Source: an uncultured Halioglobus sp. (GTDB lineage Bacteria > Pseudomonadota > Gammaproteobacteria > Pseudomonadales > Halieaceae). Taken from it: a stretch of DNA of 64,000 bases. The notes under the pieces are model-generated. The model searched no databases and was not told the DNA's origin. It saw nothing but the letters and a program-made list of their open reading frames with translations. The stretch spans positions 18 through 64,017 of the forward strand of contig CAYWWD010000010.1 in the NCBI GenBank assembly GCA_964461965.1. The letters run 5' to 3'. The translations under genes were made by a program, and so were the position numbers. This document shows positions 53,452 through 60,172 of this stretch, in pieces (position 1 is the first letter of the stretch; each line of letters opens with the position of its first letter).

Positions 53452-54717
53452 TTGGCTTCGCAGCGTCTCCCTGCGGTTTACATCCGGCTGTTGAACCGCA
53501 TCGGCCGGCTACTTGAGCACGTGCGCATCAGCCAACCCGAGTTGTGCTCACAGCGGCTGCAGCAACACGCCGAACGCAGGACGGGGCTGCATGAGTGGGG
53601 CGATGCCGCAGCCTTGATCGGCCTCGACCGGCTCACAACGGCGCTGCGCGCGCAGGCGAACCTCTCACAGATCGGCCGCATCACTGCCTATTTCAACCTG
53701 TTGGATCACCTGAGTGTCCGCCTGCGACTGATCGACTACCGCGCGCGACGACCCGAAGTTTGCGGGCAAGTGATCCGCCAGCCGGTGTTCATCCTCGGCC
53801 TGCCGCGCACGGGCACCACCATCCTGTATGAGTTGATCGCGCAGGACCCTGCGTTCCGCGCGCCGGCGACCTGGGAGGTCGCGCGCCCCTTACCGCCCCC
53901 AACGGCAGCGAGTTACACGGGTGACGCGCGCATCGACGCGGTCGAGCGGCTGCTGCGACTGATGGAAAAACTTGCGCCCGGTTTCCAGGCGATCCATGCC
54001 ATCGGCGCCCGGCTGCCACAGGAGTGTGTGTACATGATGGCGTCGTCATTCCAGAGCGAACAGTTCAGCTACATGTTCGATATCCCCGATTACCGGGACT
54101 GGGTGTTACGGCAGGATATGACCCCCGCCTACCAGTGGCATGCCCGCTTCCTGCAGCACCTGCAGGTGGATCAGGCGCCCGCACGCTGGCTGCTCAAGAC
54201 GCCCGCCCACCTCGCATGCCTGCCCTTCCTGCTCGCGCAGTATCCGGATGCTTCTATCATCTGGACGCACCGGCGGCCGCTGGACGCCATCGCATCATTC
54301 TCCAGCCTTGCTCACACACTGCGCGGCGGGTTCTGCCGCACAGTCGATCCGGTGACTACGGGTGAGCAGGAGTTTCGCCATTTTTCCACCGTGGTGCAGC
54401 TTGGAATGGACGACCGGCGCGAGCTGGATCGCGGCCAGTTCTTCGATGTGGGTTTTGATGCCATCTGCGCCGATCCTATGGCCGTGGTGGCGTCTATCTA
54501 CCACCGTTTCGACTGGCCGCTCTCACACACGGCAGAAGCCCGCATGCGCGCCTACCTGCAACGCCATCCCCGGCACCTGTACGGTGAACACTGTTACTCG
54601 CCTGCGGAATTCGGCCTCGATGCCGCCAGCGAGATCCGCAGCTTCGGCGGGTATCTCTCGCAGTACGATGAGTACCTCAGCGAGCAGGCATTCCCGCCGG
54701 GCGCCCAATGTCTATAG
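53452..54717 (+). CDS. Sulfotransferase (Stf/Sulfotransfer_3 type)
   Basis: GLPRTGTTIL, PQEC, WLLKTPAHL, THRRP motifs. Confidence 0.88.
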   Translation: MASQRLPAVYIRLLNRIGRLLEHVRISQPELCSQRLQQHAERRTGLHEWGDAAALIGLDRLTTALRAQANLSQIGRITAYFNLLDHLSVRLRLIDYRARRPEVCGQVIRQPVFILGLPRTGTTILYELIAQDPAFRAPATWEVARPLPPPTAASYTGDARIDAVERLLRLMEKLAPGFQAIHAIGARLPQECVYMMASSFQSEQFSYMFDIPDYRDWVLRQDMTPAYQWHARFLQHLQVDQAPARWLLKTPAHLACLPFLLAQYPDASIIWTHRRPLDAIASFSSLAHTLRGGFCRTVDPVTTGEQEFRHFSTVVQLGMDDRRELDRGQFFDVGFDAICADPMAVVASIYHRFDWPLSHTAEARMRAYLQRHPRHLYGEHCYSPAEFGLDAASEIRSFGGYLSQYDEYLSEQAFPPGAQCL

Positions 54718-55116: not shown

Positions 55117-58086
55117 ATGCTATACAACCGATCAACTCTTCGTTCACGCTTTAACCTGACAAGCGCCTTATTTACCTGCCTGACAGCACTGGCGGGCATA
55201 GCGGGCGTCGCCCTGCCAGCGCACGCGCAGCGCACCTTCGTCGAGTTTGAAAGCGGTCCCGTCCGGCCGGTTGCACTGACGCCGGACGGTAACACGCTGC
55301 TGGCAGTCAATACGCCCGACAATCGCCTGGAAGTGTTCTCGGTGCAGGATGGCAAGCTGACGGCAACGGATTCCATCCCGGTGGGCATGGAGCCGGTATC
55401 AGTCGCCGCGCGTAGCAACAGTGAAGTCTGGGTGGTCAACCATCTGTCGGACAGCGTGAGCATCATCGACCTTTCCGCGACGCCGGCGAAAGTCGTGCGC
55501 ACGCTGCTGGTGGGCGACGAACCGCGCGATATCGTGTTCGCCGGTACCGGCTTCAACCGCGCGTTCATCACCACTGCGCATCGCGGACAGCAGCGTTCAG
55601 ATCCTTCGATTGCCGCGGTACCCGGCGCCGGCGGGCCGCAATTGACCACCGAGGGTATTGGCCGCGCGGACGTGTGGGTCTTCGATGGCAACAACCTCGG
55701 TACCACTCTCGGCGGCACGCCGCTGCGGATTATGAGCTTCTTTGCCGATACCCCGCGCGGCCTGGCCGTGACACCCGACGGCGGTACGGTGTACGTCGCG
55801 GCCTTCCAGTCGGGCAACCAGACCACCGTCATCAATGAAGTGCAGGTGCCCAACGGTTTCGGTGCCAACGGCGCTTTCGGACCGGCCAACAACTGCTGGC
55901 AAAACGATGCCGACCCGGCCTGCGAACAAAGCGTCGCCGCGCCAGAAGTGGGGGTAATCGCGAAATTCAACGGCACCAACTGGGTTGACCAGCAAGGCAC
56001 CAACTGGAACAGCCAGGTGAAATTCAGCCTGCCGGACCGCGATGTTTTCGCTGTTAATGCCAACACCCTGGCGCCAGGCGCCGTCTACACCAGCGTCGGC
56101 ACCATCCTCTTCAATATGGCGGTGAACCCGGTCACCGGCAAGGTGTATGTCACCAACACCGAACTGCCGAACCACATCAACTTTGAAGGGCCCGGCATCT
56201 TCGGCGGCAGCACTGTGCAGGGCCACCTCTCCGAGTCGCGCATCACCGTCCTCAACCCCGTCGGCGCGACCAAGGACGTGCAGCACCTGAACCAGCACAT
56301 CGATTACAGCCAGCGCCACACCAACCCTGGCGCCGATCACGCGGCGATCAACGCGCAGGCGGCCCACAGCCTGGCGACGCCATTGCAGCCGGTGGTTTCG
56401 GCCGACGGCACCAAACTGTATGTGGCAGCATTTGGTTCGGGCAAGATCGGCGTATTCGATGTTGCGGACATTGAAGATCCGAACTTCGAAAGCAATTTTG
56501 ACCCCACCACGGAAAGCGCCAACTACATCGCCGTGGGCGGTGGCCCCGCCGGCATGGTGCTGGATGAGTCGGACGAGTTGAACAAACGTCTCTACGTACT
56601 CACCCGGTTCGGCAACCAGATCGAGGTTGTCGACCTGAACACCAATGCCGTGGTGGAAACACACGCCATGCACAACCCGGAACCGCCCGAGGTCGTGCAG
56701 GGTCGCCCCTTCCTGTACGATGCGCTCGCGACGTCGGCCAACGGCGAAACGTCCTGCTCGAGCTGCCATATCTTTGGCGACATGGACCAGCTCGCCTGGA
56801 ACCTGGGCAATCCGGACGACCGCACCTCCACCAGCAACCAGCCACAGGCCACCATTCTCGCCGGCCAGGGCACCCTGCACCCGATGAAAGGTCCCATGAC
56901 TACGCAGACCCTGCGCGGCATGGCGACGCACGGCGGTCTGCACTGGCGCGGTGACCGCGTCGACGGCTTCTTCGGCACCGATCCCTGCGCAGAACCCACA
57001 GGTGCGGCCTGCTCCGAAGACCTGTCGTTCCGCAACTTCATCGTCGCCTTTGAGGGACTGGTCGGCAAGGAGGGCACCATCACCCCGGCTGAAATGCAGC
57101 AGTTTACGGATTTCGCGCTGCAGATCATGCTCCCACCCAACCCGATCCGCCCGCTGAACAATACGCTGTCCGGTCTGGTCACTCCGGGCTTGCCCAACAG
57201 TGCCACCAACCCCAGCGCACAGCTGGGGCTGGCACGGTTCAACGGCGCCGCCACTGACACCGTGGCCAACTGCAACGGCTGCCACACGCTGGACCCCGCG
57301 AATGGTTTCTTCGGTACGGGTGGCGACCAGAGCTTCGAGGGTGAAACCCAGCACTTCAAGGTTGCGCACATGCGCAACGACTACCACAAGGTGGGCATGT
57401 TCGGCTCTTCCACCCAGAGTACGAACACCGGCGAGCAGATTCGCGGTTTCGGCATCCTGCATGACGGTTCGATCGACACGGTACGCAACTTCCTGACGGC
57501 AAGCGTGTTCACGCTCAACACGACGGATGAGGCCAATCTGGAGGCTTTCACCTTTGAGTTCCCCTCGGATCTTGCGCCCATCGTCGGCCAACAGATCACA
57601 CTCACCGCCACCAACGGCGCCGTCACCAATCCGCGCATCGATCTGTTGATCCAGCGCGCGAATGCCAACTTCACCTCGCTGATGATGGGCGGCACTGTGA
57701 AGGAATGCGATCTGATCGTGAAGGGATCGGTCGACGGGGTGGAGCGCGGCGCCGTGCGCGAGGCCAGCGGGCAGTTCCGCACGGACAAGAACGAGCTCTT
57801 CTCCGACACCACCATACGCTCGCTCGCGACCTCCCAGGGGCCCCTGACGTACACCTGTGCTCCTCCCGGCTCAGGCGTCCGTATGGGCATCGACCGGGAT
57901 CTGGACGCGGACCTCGATGGCCTGGACAACTGCCCGGCCGCCGCCAACGCCGATCAGGTGGACGACGACAACGATGGCGTGGGCTCAGCCTGCGACAACT
58001 GTCCGTTGATCCCGAACCCTGACCAGCTGGATTCCAACAGCGATGGCAGGGGCGATCTCTGCCAGGACCTGCCGCCGGGCTGCTGA
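55117..58086 (+). CDS. Secreted YVTN/YncE-type beta-propeller + diheme c-type cytochrome + TSP3-repeat protein ending LPPGC
   Basis: Signal ending AHA; propeller repeats ([29 protein letters not shown]); CSSCH and CNGCH heme motifs; DNCP..NADQ.D.D.DGVGSAC TSP3 repeats. Confidence 0.85.
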
Positions 58087-58162
58087 CACCCGGCTTCCGG
58101 GAAACCGCGCCCCGTTCTAGAATTGGGGCGCGTATTCCCGCTCACTACACGCGAGTCCTGCC

Positions 58163-58948
58163 ATGTACCCCAACGGCCTGTTTGGTTTTGACGCGCTCAG
58201 GTTGTTGATCACACCCATCGTGCTGTTTGGAATAGCGTTCTTCTCGCTGTACCTGCGCCAGGAGGGGATACGCACCGGACGCACGGTGCTCCTGTTGCTC
58301 CTGATCGGCGTGGTGGCCTTCCTGGGCGCCAAGGTGTTCTCGCTATACGTTCGCAACTGGCAACCCTACCTTCCGCTCTCGGTGGAATGGCGCAGCGGGT
58401 TGCGCTATCCCGGCGGACTCCTCGCCATGGTGTTGTTTGCGCCATTGCTGAAGCGCTGGCTATTGCCAGAACTGCCATTGGCGCGCTTCCTGGATGTGCT
58501 CGCAATCACCGTCTGTTTTTCGTTTGCACTGGTGCGTATCAGTTGCCTGCTGAACGGCTGCTGCACCGGCGGGCAGTGCACCGACTTTTACTGCCTCTCC
58601 TACGCGCCGGGCAGCCAGGCCTGGTACACCCAGTTGAAGGCAGGCGAACTGGCTGCAGGGATGGACCACAGCCATCCGGTGCTGCCGTTGCACCTGTTGT
58701 TCATGGCCGCGTCATTCACTGTGGGCGTGTTTCTCATGTGGTTCGACGGAAAGCGGACGTTCAACGGGCAGATCGCCCTGCTCTACCTCGTGCTGCACGA
58801 CGGCGCGAAAGGTTTGCTGGAATCCCTGCGGGAACCCTACCTCGCGCAACTGCAGATCACTTCACTGACAATCAGCGCGACCGGCCTTGCGGTGTTGCTC
58901 TTCGTCCTGTTTCTGCGCCGCAGGGGGGCAAAAGCGGCGGCGCAGTGA
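58163..58948 (+). CDS. Divergent prolipoprotein diacylglyceryl transferase (Lgt) family protein
   Basis: 7 TM pattern; GAKVFS, SGLRYPGG, VRISCLLNGCCTG, YLVLHDGAKGLLESLREP align to Lgt motifs but several canonical residues are changed. Confidence 0.75.
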   Translation: MYPNGLFGFDALRLLITPIVLFGIAFFSLYLRQEGIRTGRTVLLLLLIGVVAFLGAKVFSLYVRNWQPYLPLSVEWRSGLRYPGGLLAMVLFAPLLKRWLLPELPLARFLDVLAITVCFSFALVRISCLLNGCCTGGQCTDFYCLSYAPGSQAWYTQLKAGELAAGMDHSHPVLPLHLLFMAASFTVGVFLMWFDGKRTFNGQIALLYLVLHDGAKGLLESLREPYLAQLQITSLTISATGLAVLLFVLFLRRRGAKAAAQ

Positions 58949-58975: not shown

Positions 58976-59263
58976 CTAGTCGTGCTTGAGGGATTTTGTA
59001 GTGAACAGGAAATCCTTCAGTTCCTTGTCGAATGTCGGGTCCTGGCGTCGAATCCACTCCAGCACCATGGCCGCGTGTTCTTTTTCCTCGTCCCGGTTGT
59101 GTTCGAGGATGGATCTGAGTTCGTCGTTCTTGCACGCATCCACGCGCTGGTTGTACCAGTCGACGGCCTCCAGTTCCTCCATCAGGGAGGTGATCGCCCG
59201 GTGCATATCCCTGGTCGCGTCCGACAGTTCTTCGATCGGCTCGTGATATCCTTCGTTTGCCAT
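58976..59263 (-). CDS. Encapsulin-associated ferritin-like protein (EncFtn/Flp type)
   Basis: EGYHEP, SLMEELEAVDWYNQR, HNRDEEKEHAAM ferroxidase motifs. Confidence 0.9.
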   Translation of the reverse strand: MANEGYHEPIEELSDATRDMHRAITSLMEELEAVDWYNQRVDACKNDELRSILEHNRDEEKEHAAMVLEWIRRQDPTFDKELKDFLFTTKSLKHD

Positions 59264-59365
59264 TACCTGTTCTCCTGTATTCGGCTTTTTCCCGTATCGG
59301 GAATGACAGCCTATCGCAGATGCCAGCGCCATTAAAGTCACGCGCGCGCATGCTATGATGCCTGT

Positions 59366-60172
59366 ATGCGTCCACTGCTCTTCCTGCTACTGAGTCTTTT
59401 CACCGCCCTCGCCTGCGCGCAGCGGCAGATGACGACCATCCCGGTGTACTACACCACAGCAGCGCAACTGGCGGCCGTCATCCGCCCCCATCTCTCCGAC
59501 GGCAGTACCGTCAGCGTGTTCCAGAACCAGCTGGTGCTGAACGCCACGCCGGAGGAACTGGCCAAAACCCGCGAGCTGCTGCGGCAGCTCGACGTCCGTG
59601 GCCGGCAATTGCTGGTATCGCTGCGCACCGATGGTATGGGTAGCGACAGCAGCCGCGGGGTGGATGTCCAGGGCACTGTACACGCGGGTGACACAGTGAT
59701 CACCAACCAGCAGGGAAGAATCCCCACGGAATCGCGCACCACGGTGCGGGTGCAGAACCACCGCGGCGCGAGTGCGGACAACGGCAACCAGTCGGTGCGC
59801 GTAACAGAAGGGCAAGCGGCGTTTATCGGCACGGGTATGGTCGCCCCGCTGCGCAGCGTCACCGTGGGGCCGGACGGACGTCGCTACGTACAGCAGGAAA
59901 CGGTCAATGCCATGTCGGGCTTCTACGCCACGACCTGGGTCAACGGCGGCAGCGTGCGGATCAGCATCGACCAGAGCAACGACCGCATACAGGGTTCGCA
60001 GATCGCCACTCAGCAATTGCGTTCCGAGGTGAGCGGAGCACTGGGGGAATGGATTCCCATCGGCGGGATCGACACATCGTCCACGCAGCAGGATCGCGGC
60101 CTGGGTTCGCGTGGTCAGTCCAGCCAGGCAAATTCCACGCAGTTGTTCATCAAGGTTGAGGCACTGGAATAA
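59366..60172 (+). CDS. Short secretin-like protein (secretin N-domain plus truncated C-domain)
   Basis: Signal peptide; N-domain (NQLVLNATPEELAKTRELLRQLD); VRVTEGQAAFIGTG and GEWIPIGG motifs. Confidence 0.7.
   Translation: MRPLLFLLLSLFTALACAQRQMTTIPVYYTTAAQLAAVIRPHLSDGSTVSVFQNQLVLNATPEELAKTRELLRQLDVRGRQLLVSLRTDGMGSDSSRGVDVQGTVHAGDTVITNQQGRIPTESRTTVRVQNHRGASADNGNQSVRVTEGQAAFIGTGMVAPLRSVTVGPDGRRYVQQETVNAMSGFYATTWVNGGSVRISIDQSNDRIQGSQIATQQLRSEVSGALGEWIPIGGIDTSSTQQDRGLGSRGQSSQANSTQLFIKVEALE

What the first reader, a model, noticed from the sequence alone, without database searches (positions are those of the whole stretch)
55117..58948. Candidate C-terminal Cys lipidation system: secreted protein ending LPPGC-stop followed by a dedicated divergent Lgt paralog
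Seen: the 989-aa exported protein has a cleavable (non-lipobox) signal peptide and ends DLPPGC-stop (58069-58086). Counting cysteines in the mature chain gives 4 in two CxxCH motifs, pairs at NCWQ..PAC, DPC..AAC and KEC..YTC, 4 in the TSP3 repeats, and one left over: the terminal Cys. 76 bp downstream on the same strand lies an Lgt-family gene. Established: Lgt transfers diacylglyceryl to the thiol of an N-terminal lipobox Cys, and C-terminal sorting tags with an invariant Cys (MYXO-CTERM) are known, but those carry a TM helix and basic tail, which this protein lacks. Inference: this Lgt paralog may lipidate, or otherwise modify, a free C-terminal Gly-Cys, anchoring soluble exported proteins to a membrane without a lipobox or TM anchor. 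I do not know of such a pathway being described.
Basis: partly seen in the sequence, partly recalled or inferred. Interest (0 to 1): 0.82.

Follow-up and report, generated by a model that had tools for sequence, protein, structure and literature searches.

The report
Terminal Gly-Cys tag with dedicated Lgt-like enzyme
A large exported protein that ends exactly in Gly-Cys sits next to a strongly remodelled relative of the lipoprotein-lipidating enzyme Lgt. Comparison across genomes suggests the pair is an undescribed way of anchoring secreted proteins by their last residue; no experiment has tested this.

Summary
A 989-aa exported protein (55117-58086) ends LPPGC-stop. It has no C-terminal hydrophobic segment, and its terminal Cys is the one unpaired Cys. 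An Lgt-family gene (58163-58948) follows 76 nt downstream.

The terminal Gly-Cys is conserved. Of the 120 best homologs, 78 end in GC and 9 in GC plus one residue. Another 30 carry a motif + TM helix + Arg-rich sorting tail instead, so GC occupies the slot of a membrane anchor.

The Lgt-like protein has the Lgt fold, and E. coli Lgt is its only PDB match. It belongs to a distinct subfamily, called "class B" here. This subfamily keeps R143, E243 and R246 but has lost H103, N146, E151, Y235 and R239, residues E. coli Lgt cannot tolerate changing.

Class B genes sit next to unrelated exported proteins ending in Cys or Cys+1: proteases, propellers, Ig-like, cohesin and pilin-like proteins.
- Halieaceae/Cellvibrionales: 17/24 loci.
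- Other phyla: 6/26 loci.
- Sister class that keeps R239: 4/98 loci.

No paper or curated model was found describing this. Lipid transfer to the terminal Cys is the best reading. It remains inference: the chemistry, the donor lipid and a separate canonical lgt were not shown.

The parts
55117..58086 (+). Gene for a 989-aa exported protein: YVTN-type beta-propeller, two CxxCH haem-binding motifs, C-terminal TSP3 repeats, ending LPPGC-stop. It is the presumed substrate.
   Evidence: ORF and translation. Pfam Lactonase/SGL/TSP_3 and a weak CCP_MauG hit. NCBIfam beta_rpt_yvtn. 100% identical database protein P0121.
55117..55227 (+). Signal peptide (residues 1-37, ...ALPAHA|QRT), signal-peptidase-I type with no lipobox.
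   Evidence: Read from the translation. The strongest hydrophobic stretch of the protein starts at residue 17.
56755..56769 (+). First CxxCH haem c attachment motif (C547-H551).
57271..57285 (+). Second CxxCH motif (C719-H723).
57889..58065 (+). Thrombospondin type 3 (Ca-binding, Cys-containing) repeats directly before the tag.
   Evidence: Pfam TSP_3 at residues 949-970. NCBIfam MtsC-like TSP3 region at residues 925-983.
58069..58086 (+). C-terminal tag Leu-Pro-Pro-Gly-Cys followed by the stop codon.
   Evidence: Sequence. In 78 GC-ended homologs: -1 Gly 78/78, -2 Pro 51, -3 Pro 57, -4 Leu 45.
58087..58162 (+). 76-nt spacer with a stable stem-loop (about 58098-58140) and no T-run.
   Evidence: RNA fold -34.9 kcal/mol, z -3.2, 0 of 200 shuffles as stable. 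No terminator-like site called here. GC-rich arms followed by (T/C)ATTCCC recur in L002 and L004 and, more loosely, L001; L054 and L050 have longer spacers with T-runs.
58163..58948 (+). Gene for a 261-aa class B Lgt-like membrane protein. It is the presumed modifying enzyme.
   Evidence: Pfam LGT 65.5 bits. hhalign to E. coli Lgt at 97.6% probability. AF2 model pLDDT 96.2. Only significant PDB fold match is 5AZB, TM 0.69.
58403..58414 (+). R81-Y82-P83-G84, which replaces the S-F-H103-G of the Lgt HGGL motif.
58535..58570 (+). Remodelled Lgt signature motif R125-I-S-C128-L-L-N-G-C133-C134-T-G136. E. coli has R143-L-G-N146-F-I-N-G-E151-L-W-G154.
   Evidence: R125 is 98% conserved, and C128, C133, C134 and G136 are invariant, in 122 diverse family representatives. 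Register confirmed by hhalign and MAFFT.
58808..58831 (+). K216...E220...R223, equivalent to E. coli R239 (here Lys), E243 and R246.
53452..54717 (+). Upstream Sulfotransfer_3 gene. It is syntenic with the pair in Halieaceae only, and its functional connection is unknown.
   Evidence: Pfam PF13469 131 bits. Present upstream in L001-L008, L039-L041 and others, absent from distant loci.

Best explanation
The pair is a two-component C-terminal anchoring system. The large protein is exported by Sec and its signal peptide is removed by signal peptidase I. It folds in the periplasm and presents a free C-terminal ...Gly-Cys-COOH at the end of a flexible TSP3 region. The neighbouring class B Lgt-like membrane enzyme, whose remodelled signature motif lies at the periplasmic end of TM4, transfers a lipid to the thiol of this terminal Cys. 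The lipid is most simply a diacylglyceryl group from a membrane phospholipid, as with Lgt. The protein then becomes membrane-anchored by its last residue, without a lipobox, a TM helix or a sortase-like cleavage step.

Shown: the tag, its conservation, its exchange with TM-type tails, the Lgt fold, the subfamily-specific active-site changes, and the enrichment of Cys-terminal exported neighbours.

Inferred: that the enzyme acts on the tag, that the modification is a lipid, which lipid it is, and where the protein ends up.
For: 1. The tag is conserved and behaves like an anchor. Of 120 homologs, 78 end GC and 9 end GC+1. Another 30 have a [VI]P[AML][LM]P-like motif, a hydrophobic helix and an Arg-rich tail at the same position. 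This is the 'choice of anchor' pattern.
2. Gly is invariant at -1, as in the lipobox. Eight of 78 ends fit the strict lipobox [LVI][ASTVI][GAS]C at the very C-terminus.
3. The neighbour has the Lgt fold. Foldseek finds only 5AZB (prob 1.00, TM 0.69) and hhalign gives 97.6%. It keeps D129, R143, G154, E243 and R246. R143 binds the diacylglyceryl moiety in E. coli Lgt (PMC4728403).
4. The variable partners share only the Cys end. Next to class B genes lie the following:
- an Ig-like protein (..TLPPGC);
- matrixin/CARDB proteases (..PPGCD, ..SAGCY);
- a PQQ propeller (..LIPPGC);
- a subtilisin (..GGGCGG);
- a prepilin-type protein in the same ORF as the enzyme (..PAPGC);
- cohesin-domain proteins (..GCGCE, ..GCGCG);
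- beta-helix proteins (..GPDGC, ..GPTCP);
- others (..ASGC, ..VSGC, ..CTCQ).
5. Internal control. Flanking products ending in Cys or Cys+1 occur at 17/24 class B loci in Halieaceae/Cellvibrionales and at 6/26 class B loci in other phyla. They occur at 4/98 loci of the sister class that keeps R239. B-other against A gives p = 0.006 by loci and 0.002 by genes.
6. Same-genome co-occurrence without adjacency.
7. A 2025 working model for MYXO-CTERM predicts an unidentified 'Lgt-like acyl-transferase' acting on a C-terminal GCGC Cys (PMC11980579).
Against: - No biochemical evidence of any modification exists.
- The subfamily has lost residues whose substitution inactivates E. coli Lgt (PMC4728403): H103 (here Pro), E151 (Cys), R239 (Lys; R239K is inactive) and Y235 (His). 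The donor, the mechanism or even enzymatic competence may therefore differ.
- The substrate has no membrane-embedded segment to bring the Cys to a lateral cleft.
- Adjacency is incomplete. L015 and L017 (GC-ended homologs) have no LGT neighbour. L003, L008, L046 and L051 have the enzyme without a Cys-ended neighbour. About three quarters of class B loci outside Halieaceae show no Cys-ended flank.
- Halieaceae loci are orthologous synteny, not independent events.
- ORF calling in the loci was heuristic.
- In some relatives a T-run terminator and 200-300 nt separate the two genes.
- The presence of a canonical lgt in the same genome was not verified.
Confidence: 0.5

Rival explanations
1. The enzyme and the tag are functionally linked, but the chemistry is not Lgt-like lipid transfer. 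The three invariant cysteines (C128, C133, C134) at the periplasmic end of TM4 might form a mixed disulfide with the terminal Cys, tethering the protein covalently and reversibly to the membrane protein itself. Alternatively they might catalyse another thiol modification through a covalent enzyme intermediate.
For: N146, E151 and L152 are replaced by invariant Cys in all 122 representatives. The Halieaceae clade adds further conserved Cys (C118, C139, C144) around the same motif and loop. Catalytic H103 and R239 of Lgt are lost. The substrate's one unpaired Cys is the terminal one.
Against: The Cys-x3-Gly-Cys-Cys variant is also present in class A proteins that keep Y26, H103 and R239. One of these sits next to ileS-lspA in a Melainabacteria genome. 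The Cys triad is therefore compatible with an ordinary Lgt-like enzyme and is not specific to the tag-linked subfamily. A stoichiometric tether would not explain several Cys-ended proteins per genome with one enzyme gene.
Confidence: 0.17
2. There is no direct link. The Lgt-like gene is a membrane enzyme with another role, such as lipid metabolism or a second Lgt for ordinary lipoproteins. The terminal Gly-Cys serves something else, for example intermolecular disulfide formation, metal binding or lipidation by the housekeeping Lgt. The adjacency would then be inherited synteny plus chance.
For: Most support comes from one family (Halieaceae), where gene order is inherited. Outside it, only 6/26 loci show a Cys-ended flank. 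Some GC-ended homologs lack the neighbour. Some paralogs keep only the sulfotransferase neighbour. MrtX processed a MYXO-CTERM substrate in E. coli, which led its authors to favour the housekeeping Lgt for C-terminal Cys lipidation (PMC11980579).
Against: At least ten unrelated protein families with Cys ends lie beside class B genes in different genomes and phyla, while the sister class shows 4/98. Different Cys-ended genes have been inserted next to the same enzyme gene within Halieaceae (L009, L044, L053, L057). One ORF joins the enzyme to a GC-ended pilin-like protein.
Confidence: 0.2
3. The Lgt-like protein is a maturation factor for the neighbouring di-haem cytochrome, for example a thiol-redox or haem-handling membrane protein. 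The terminal Cys would then be incidental.
For: The window's substrate carries two CxxCH motifs, and the membrane protein has invariant periplasm-facing cysteines.
Against: Other neighbours of class B genes are proteases, Ig-like, cohesin, beta-helix and pilin-like proteins with no cytochrome or haem-binding domain hit. The feature they share is the Cys end.
Confidence: 0.03

Closest known systems
Lgt, phosphatidylglycerol:prolipoprotein diacylglyceryl transferase (Pfam PF01790; E. coli structure 5AZB)
   Same: Same 7-TM fold (TM-score 0.69). Homologous by profile comparison (97.6%). D129, R143, G150, G154, E243 and R246 are conserved. The presumed acceptor is a Cys thiol preceded by Gly.
   Different: Falls far below the lgt equivalog cut-off (37.7 against 118.9 bits) and is not detected by phmmer with E. 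coli Lgt. H103 is Pro, N146, E151 and L152 are Cys, Y235 is His, R239 is Lys and E202 is hydrophobic. The presumed acceptor Cys is the last residue of a soluble mature protein, not the +1 residue after a signal-peptide helix.
MYXO-CTERM and related invariant-Cys C-terminal sorting signals (JDVT-, Synerg-, CGP-CTERM) processed by myxosortases
   Same: A C-terminal tag with an invariant Cys, often in a G-C context, on diverse exported surface-type proteins. Lipidation of that Cys by an unidentified 'Lgt-like' enzyme has been proposed (PMC11980579; bioRxiv 10.1101/2023.06.07.544157). After myxosortase cleavage the predicted product also ends at the Cys. Some class B neighbours end ..GCGCE or ..GCGCG.
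   Different: No TM helix, no basic tail, and so no need for a CPBP protease. No CPBP gene appears among the called neighbours. No MYXO-CTERM model hit was found. The partner here is an Lgt-family gene, for which those systems have no identified counterpart.
Other tripartite C-terminal sorting systems (PEP-CTERM/exosortase, GlyGly-CTERM/rhombosortase, PGF-CTERM/archaeosortase, IPTL-/VPAMP-CTERM)
   Same: Orthologs of the window's protein carry a motif + TM + Arg-rich tail in place of GC (30/120), so the two kinds of end appear interchangeable. Rhombosortase and ArtA substrates end up lipid-linked at the C-terminus.
   Different: Those signals are cleaved off by a dedicated protease or transpeptidase. 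Here nothing needs removing, or at most one or two residues in the GC+1 and GCGG variants. The tails in the orthologs reach no curated CTERM model cut-off and show only weak IPTL/VPAMP resemblance.
Eukaryotic C-terminal Cys prenylation (CaaX; Rab -GC/-CC/-CXC ends)
   Same: Membrane anchoring through a thioether lipid on a Cys at or next to the C-terminus, including ends of the form -GC. This comparison is from general knowledge.
   Different: A cytosolic, soluble prenyltransferase with isoprenoid donors, unrelated in fold. This is an analogy only.

Membership tests
Lgt (prolipoprotein diacylglyceryl transferase) | Match to Pfam PF01790 above the gathering score | tested here: met
   65.5 bits against 24.9, covering residues 20-246
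Lgt (prolipoprotein diacylglyceryl transferase) | Score above the NCBIfam equivalog cut-off (TIGR00544) | tested here: not met
   37.7 bits against 118.9. phmmer with E. coli Lgt does not find it at E <= 1e-3.
Lgt (prolipoprotein diacylglyceryl transferase) | Seven-helix Lgt fold | tested here: met
   AF2 pLDDT 96.2, pTM 0.89. The only PDB match with E <= 0.001 is 5AZB, TM 0.69/0.64 over 259 columns.
Lgt (prolipoprotein diacylglyceryl transferase) | Signature motif G142-R-x-G-N146-F-x-N-G-E151-x-x-G154 | tested here: not met
   R143, N149, G150 and G154 are kept. N146, E151 and L152 are replaced by invariant Cys, and G142 and G145 are not kept. E151A/Q is inactive in E. coli.
Lgt (prolipoprotein diacylglyceryl transferase) | HGGL motif with essential H103 | tested here: not met
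   The equivalent is R-Y-P83-G-G. Pro occurs in 89% of family representatives. H103A/N/Q/R/Y are all inactive in E. coli.
Lgt (prolipoprotein diacylglyceryl transferase) | R239-E243-R246 hydrogen-bond network, with Y235 | tested here: not met
   E243 and R246 are kept (98-99%). R239 is Lys (81%) and Y235 is His. R239K and Y235F/L/S are inactive in E. coli.
Lgt (prolipoprotein diacylglyceryl transferase) | Transfers diacylglyceryl from phosphatidylglycerol to a lipobox Cys | not testable with these tools
   Needs an enzyme assay or mass spectrometry
Classical bacterial lipoprotein (substrate side) | Lipobox [LVI][ASTVI][GAS]C at the end of the N-terminal signal peptide | tested here: not met
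   The signal peptide ends ALPAHA|Q. The only Cys in it (LFTC) has Thr at -1.
MYXO-CTERM-type invariant-Cys sorting signal | Short signature motif with an invariant Cys near the C-terminus | tested here: met
   78/120 homologs end GC and 9 end GC+1
MYXO-CTERM-type invariant-Cys sorting signal | Transmembrane helix after the motif | tested here: not met
   The protein ends at the Cys. The maximum hydropathy in the last 100 residues is 0.18.
MYXO-CTERM-type invariant-Cys sorting signal | Arg-rich cytoplasmic tail | tested here: not met
   Absent
MYXO-CTERM-type invariant-Cys sorting signal | Partner CPBP-family myxosortase | tested here: inconclusive
   None among the called genes within 6 kb in L015-L017 and L039-L041. 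Whole genomes could not be searched.
MYXO-CTERM-type invariant-Cys sorting signal | Hit to a curated CTERM model | tested here: not met
   The C-terminal 80 and 130 residues hit only the TSP3 region of MtsC and an Omp28-related model. No CTERM model was hit at E <= 10.

The most novel reading that the evidence does not exclude
Class B Lgt-like proteins (Pro at the H103 position, Lys/Thr at R239, Cys-x3-Gly-Cys-Cys signature) would be the founding enzymes of a tail-less C-terminal lipoprotein pathway. They would lipidate a Cys that is the last, or nearly the last, residue of Sec-exported proteins. This would anchor proteases, redox enzymes, adhesin-like and pilin-like proteins in several bacterial phyla. 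It would be the first identified example of the 'Lgt-like' activity postulated for invariant-Cys C-terminal sorting signals such as MYXO-CTERM.
Probability: 0.4. Interest if true: 0.9.

Novelty: new variant of a known kind. Interest (0 to 1): 0.8.

Why it matters
Known bacterial lipoprotein biogenesis acts only on an N-terminal lipobox Cys. Known C-terminal anchors all need a cleavable TM tail and a sortase-like enzyme. A pathway that lipidates a free C-terminal Gly-Cys would be a third, simpler logic for attaching secreted proteins to membranes.

It would change how surface proteomes are predicted, because such proteins are now scored as soluble. It would give a concrete candidate enzyme family for the unidentified step, lipidation of the invariant Cys, in MYXO-CTERM-type sorting. 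It would also offer a minimal two-residue tag plus one enzyme for engineering membrane display.

The hypothesis can be tested directly with one gene pair, a Cys-to-Ser mutant and mass spectrometry.

Tried and rejected
- A recollection of a curated 'GC-type dockerin' C-terminal domain was checked. No such model hit the tail or any other Cys-ended neighbour in NCBIfam, and no paper holds the term. It was dropped.
- A sequence search of the PDB with the family profile found nothing, even at E = 10. Fold comparison was needed instead.
- The 61-sequence alignment A2 was too divergent for the search for related loci. Narrower subsets were used.
- I first took the Cys-x3-Gly-Cys-Cys motif to be the hallmark of the tag-linked enzymes. 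The last scan showed it in at least 561 loci of many phyla, including proteins that keep H103 and R239 and one next to ileS-lspA. Those show no enrichment of Cys-ended neighbours (0/25 and 4/98). The hallmark is therefore the class B changes, not the Cys triad.
- A first, cruder neighbour statistic in the distant clade was weak (3/26 against 5/75, p = 0.34). It improved only after defining class B and using class A as the control.
- The Myxococcaceae hit (L086) is a degraded fragment lacking the conserved Arg. It gives no evidence for a link to Myxococcus.
- The sulfotransferase neighbour is confined to Halieaceae synteny and was not taken as part of the system.
- Cytochrome maturation was rejected because the other neighbours returned no cytochrome or haem-binding domain hit.
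- Transcript evidence was sought, but only DNA metagenomes from activated sludge and wastewater hold the sequence.
- A canonical lgt was sought in the window and in all fetched loci with E. coli Lgt. None was found in the window, and whole genomes could not be read.


Full report
**1. The observation**

The ORF 55117..58086 (+) encodes 989 aa and ends ...[11 protein letters not shown]-stop. The LPPGC codons are 58069-58083.

The N-terminus ([37 protein letters not shown]|QRT) is a signal-peptidase-I type signal peptide. Its only Cys is preceded by Thr, so it does not fit a lipobox.

- four Cys in two CxxCH motifs (547/550 and 719/722);
- three plausible pairs (260/269, 624/632, 864/914);
- four in the TSP3 repeats (939, 959, 962, 982);
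- one left over, the terminal C989.

There is no hydrophobic segment near the C-terminus.

After a 76-nt spacer comes a 261-aa ORF (58163..58948). It matches Pfam LGT well above threshold (65.5 against 24.9 bits). It scores far below NCBI's lgt equivalog model (37.7 against 118.9 bits).

Names attached to close homologs place the window in Halieaceae (Halioglobus/Haliea, Cellvibrionales). The sequence is found in activated-sludge and wastewater metagenomes.

**2. The tag is conserved and sits where other orthologs carry a membrane anchor**

The protein has thousands of homologs. The C-termini of the 120 best were tabulated:
- 78 end in Gly-Cys. Gly at -1 is invariant. Pro dominates -2 and -3, and Leu dominates -4.
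- Eight of these fit the strict lipobox [LVI][ASTVI][GAS]C at the very end, for example ..VVGC, ..IAGC, ..VIGC.
- 9 end in GC plus one residue (GCG, GCA, GCQ, GCF).
- 30 have, at the same position after the acidic repeats, a [VI]P[AML][LM]P-like motif, a hydrophobic helix and an Arg-rich tail. This is the tripartite architecture of C-terminal sorting signals.

The tails reach no curated CTERM model and resemble IPTL- and VPAMP-CTERM only weakly. This exchange of a two-residue end for a TM-type anchor in orthologs is the strongest argument that Gly-Cys-COOH is itself an anchoring or sorting signal.

**3. What the neighbour is**

A profile of the paralog and close relatives was searched against 1.84 billion representative proteins. 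It finds only 3,159 hits at E <= 1e-3 (666 at 1e-10), so it does not pick up the bulk of ordinary Lgt proteins. Sequence search of the PDB finds nothing.

Other methods establish the homology:
- Profile comparison with E. coli Lgt gives 97.6% probability.
- An AlphaFold2 model is very confident (pLDDT 96.2).
- Its only significant structural match is E. coli Lgt 5AZB (TM 0.69).

In E. coli numbering, the family keeps D129, R143, G150, G154, E243 and R246. It replaces N146, E151 and L152 by three invariant cysteines, giving the signature R-x-G-C-x3-G-C-C-x-G.

The last genome scan showed that this Cys-containing signature is widespread, in at least 561 loci: Planctomycetota, Armatimonadota, Clostridia, Synergistaceae and others. 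One Melainabacteria member keeps Y26, H103 and R239 and lies beside ileS-lspA, so it may be the housekeeping Lgt there.

I classified 192 such proteins by the residues at positions 103 and 239. This separates two groups:
- class A, which keeps R239;
- class B, with Pro at 103 (R-Y/F-P-G in place of S-F-H-G) and Lys, Thr or Ser at 239. Y235 and E202 are also lost.

The window's protein, all the Halieaceae ones, and those of Binatia and of Desulfurellales and other deltaproteobacterial MAGs are class B.

In E. coli Lgt, H103A/N/Q/R/Y, E151A/Q, R239K and Y235F/L/S all abolish activity, and R143 contacts the diacylglyceryl moiety (PMC4728403). Class B is therefore an Lgt-fold protein that keeps part of the lipid-binding core. 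It has a rebuilt arm-2/HGGL region and head-domain network. These are parts of the E. coli enzyme implicated in donor-lipid (PG) binding and catalysis, and the arm-2/HGGL region borders the front cleft.

**4. Is the enzyme linked to Cys-terminal proteins?**

*Within Halieaceae and Cellvibrionales.* The order sulfotransferase, large protein, Lgt-like gene is conserved. That alone could be inherited synteny. However, other unrelated Cys-ended genes lie beside the same enzyme gene in individual genomes:
- a 530-aa Ig-like protein ending ..TLPPGC (L009);
- 458-464-aa matrixin/CARDB proteases ending ..PPGCD or ..SAGCY (L005, L013, L044);
- a 1066-aa PQQ-propeller protein ending ..LIPPGC (L053);
- a subtilisin with TSP3 repeats ending ..GGGCGG in the isolate Halieaceae bacterium WMMBA4 (L057);
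- in a Cellvibrionales MAG, a single ORF joining the Lgt-like domain to a prepilin-type protein (GFTLIE motif) ending ..PPAPGC (L043 = P0244).

*Co-occurrence without adjacency.* In two genomes, Cys-ended homologs away from the enzyme coexist with it elsewhere:
- On the 4.5-Mb contig of ERZ25074506, P0180 (..INGC) is not adjacent, while P0183 (..AIGC) about 120 kb away is.
- In GCA_039190425.1, P0157 (..LPGCA) is not adjacent, while the enzyme lies on another contig next to the ..LIPPGC protein.

*Outside the family.* Class B genes of Binatia, deltaproteobacterial MAGs and metagenome contigs are flanked by exported proteins with similar ends:
- ..GCGCE and ..GCGCG (two cohesin-domain proteins, L022);
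- ..GPTCP (beta-helix, L023);
- ..GPDGC, followed by a second Lgt-like gene (L024);
- ..SAPGC and ..SSPCE (L028);
- ..ASGC and ..VSGC (L120, L142);
- ..ACTCQ, ..SCVCQ and ..QCYCQ (L105, L144, L152).

*Counts with an internal control.* These are products of at least 150 aa, within 300 nt of the enzyme gene, ending in Cys or Cys+1:

| Group | Loci | Flanking genes |
|---|---|---|
| Class B, Halieaceae/Cellvibrionales | 17/24 | 18/36 |
| Class B, other phyla | 6/26 | 6/32 |
| Class A | 4/98 | 4/157 |

Fisher's test for class B in other phyla against class A gives p = 0.006 by loci and 0.002 by genes.

*Caveats.* ORF calling was heuristic. Loci within a family are not independent. A first, cruder count in the distant clade was not significant. 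Adjacency is far from universal.

**5. Mechanism**

The most economical reading has four steps:
1. Sec export and signal-peptidase-I cleavage.
2. Folding, with the Gly-Cys end exposed after the flexible Ca-binding repeats.
3. Transfer of a lipid by the class B enzyme to the terminal thiol at the outer face of the inner membrane.
4. As a result, a protein anchored by its last residue.

The invariant Gly at -1, the occasional perfect lipobox at the end, and the retained R143/E243/R246 core fit Lgt-like recognition and catalysis. The lost H103, E151 and R239 mean that the donor lipid and the catalytic details may differ. The three invariant Cys could take part, possibly through a covalent intermediate, although they are not specific to class B.

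GC+1 and GCGG ends suggest either tolerance of one or two extra residues or trimming. Whether the product stays on the inner membrane or is moved outward, for instance by a type II secretion system as proposed for MYXO-CTERM proteins, is unknown.

The spacer carries a stable hairpin without a T-run. Some relatives have longer spacers with T-run terminators. Co-transcription is therefore plausible in the window but is not a general rule.

**6. Comparison with what is known**

Literature searches found no description of a Gly-Cys-stop tag, of this Lgt subfamily, or of an Lgt paralog acting at a C-terminus. NCBIfam has no specific model for either partner.

The nearest concept is the MYXO-CTERM family of invariant-Cys sorting signals. 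Haft's analysis and the 2025 myxosortase paper propose lipidation of the Cys by an unknown enzyme, drawn as an 'Lgt-like acyl-transferase', followed by cleavage just after it. The authors themselves favour the housekeeping Lgt. The window's tag looks like the end product of that cleavage encoded directly, and its partner is a dedicated Lgt-family gene.

Two filings fail:
- As a canonical Lgt, it fails on four defining residues and on the equivalog score.
- As a MYXO-CTERM signal, it fails on the TM helix and the basic tail.

I therefore rate it a new variant of known kinds (C-terminal sorting signals and Lgt-family lipid transfer) rather than a member of either.

**7. Verdict**

The comparative predictions that were tested held; the chemistry is untested; the presence of a separate canonical lgt could not be checked.
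- A functional link between tag and enzyme: about 0.7.
- Lipidation of the terminal Cys by this enzyme: about 0.5.
- Interest: 0.8.

Noticed in passing
window 58976-59341 (-): A 121-aa gene for an EncFtn-like (encapsulated-ferritin-like) protein lies convergent with the Lgt-like gene (Pfam PF22277, 148 bits). No encapsulin shell gene was looked for.
   Followed up: no
window 59366-60172 (+); also L002 7264-8070, L009 7787-8590: A 268-aa exported protein with a single Secretin_N domain recurs just downstream of the Lgt-like gene in some Halieaceae loci. It is too short to be a secretin, and its role is unknown.
   Followed up: partly
window 53452-54717 (+): A Sulfotransfer_3 gene is conserved upstream in Halieaceae. 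It stays next to the Lgt-like gene even where the large protein is missing (L003, L008, L046). It is absent from distant class B loci.
   Followed up: partly
L043 6001-7314 (= P0244): One continuous 437-aa ORF joins a class B Lgt-like domain to a prepilin-type protein (leader ...KKLQQQG|GFTLIE) that ends ..PPAPGC. An internal Met before the leader suggests that two genes may have lost the stop between them, or that the fusion is real.
   Followed up: partly
L170-L249, L062-L090 (e.g. L073 4505-5320): A variant of the Lgt signature motif with Cys at the N146, E151 and L152 positions is common in Planctomycetota, Armatimonadota, Clostridia, Synergistaceae and others. In a Melainabacteria MAG it keeps H103 and R239 and lies beside ileS-lspA, so it may be the housekeeping Lgt there. 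I found no description of this variant.
   Followed up: partly
L005 2629-5751, L013 1383-4403: In two Halieaceae MAGs the ortholog of the large protein ends in a Cys-rich stretch (...CGAACVxVVCGxxxCxNPGP) rather than GC. A convergent protease nearby ends ..PPGCD. This may be a third form of the tag.
   Followed up: no
L014/L056 3178-5938 and 6001-6769; L042 2867-5802: In two long-read-style MAGs the large gene is broken into several frames. In one of them the Lgt-like gene is also split. This could be assembly indels or joint decay.
   Followed up: no
window 58098-58140: A stable GC-rich stem-loop sits in the 76-nt spacer (-34.9 kcal/mol, z -3.2). GC-rich arms followed by (T/C)ATTCCC recur in L002 and L004 and, more loosely, in L001. 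It is not a canonical terminator.
   Followed up: partly
L015 9071-9628 (-), L016 9247-9777 (-), L017 5113-5631 (-): Homologs of the large protein that lack an Lgt-like neighbour each have a 172-185-aa gene without any Pfam hit beside them. Whether these small proteins are related to each other was not checked.
   Followed up: no
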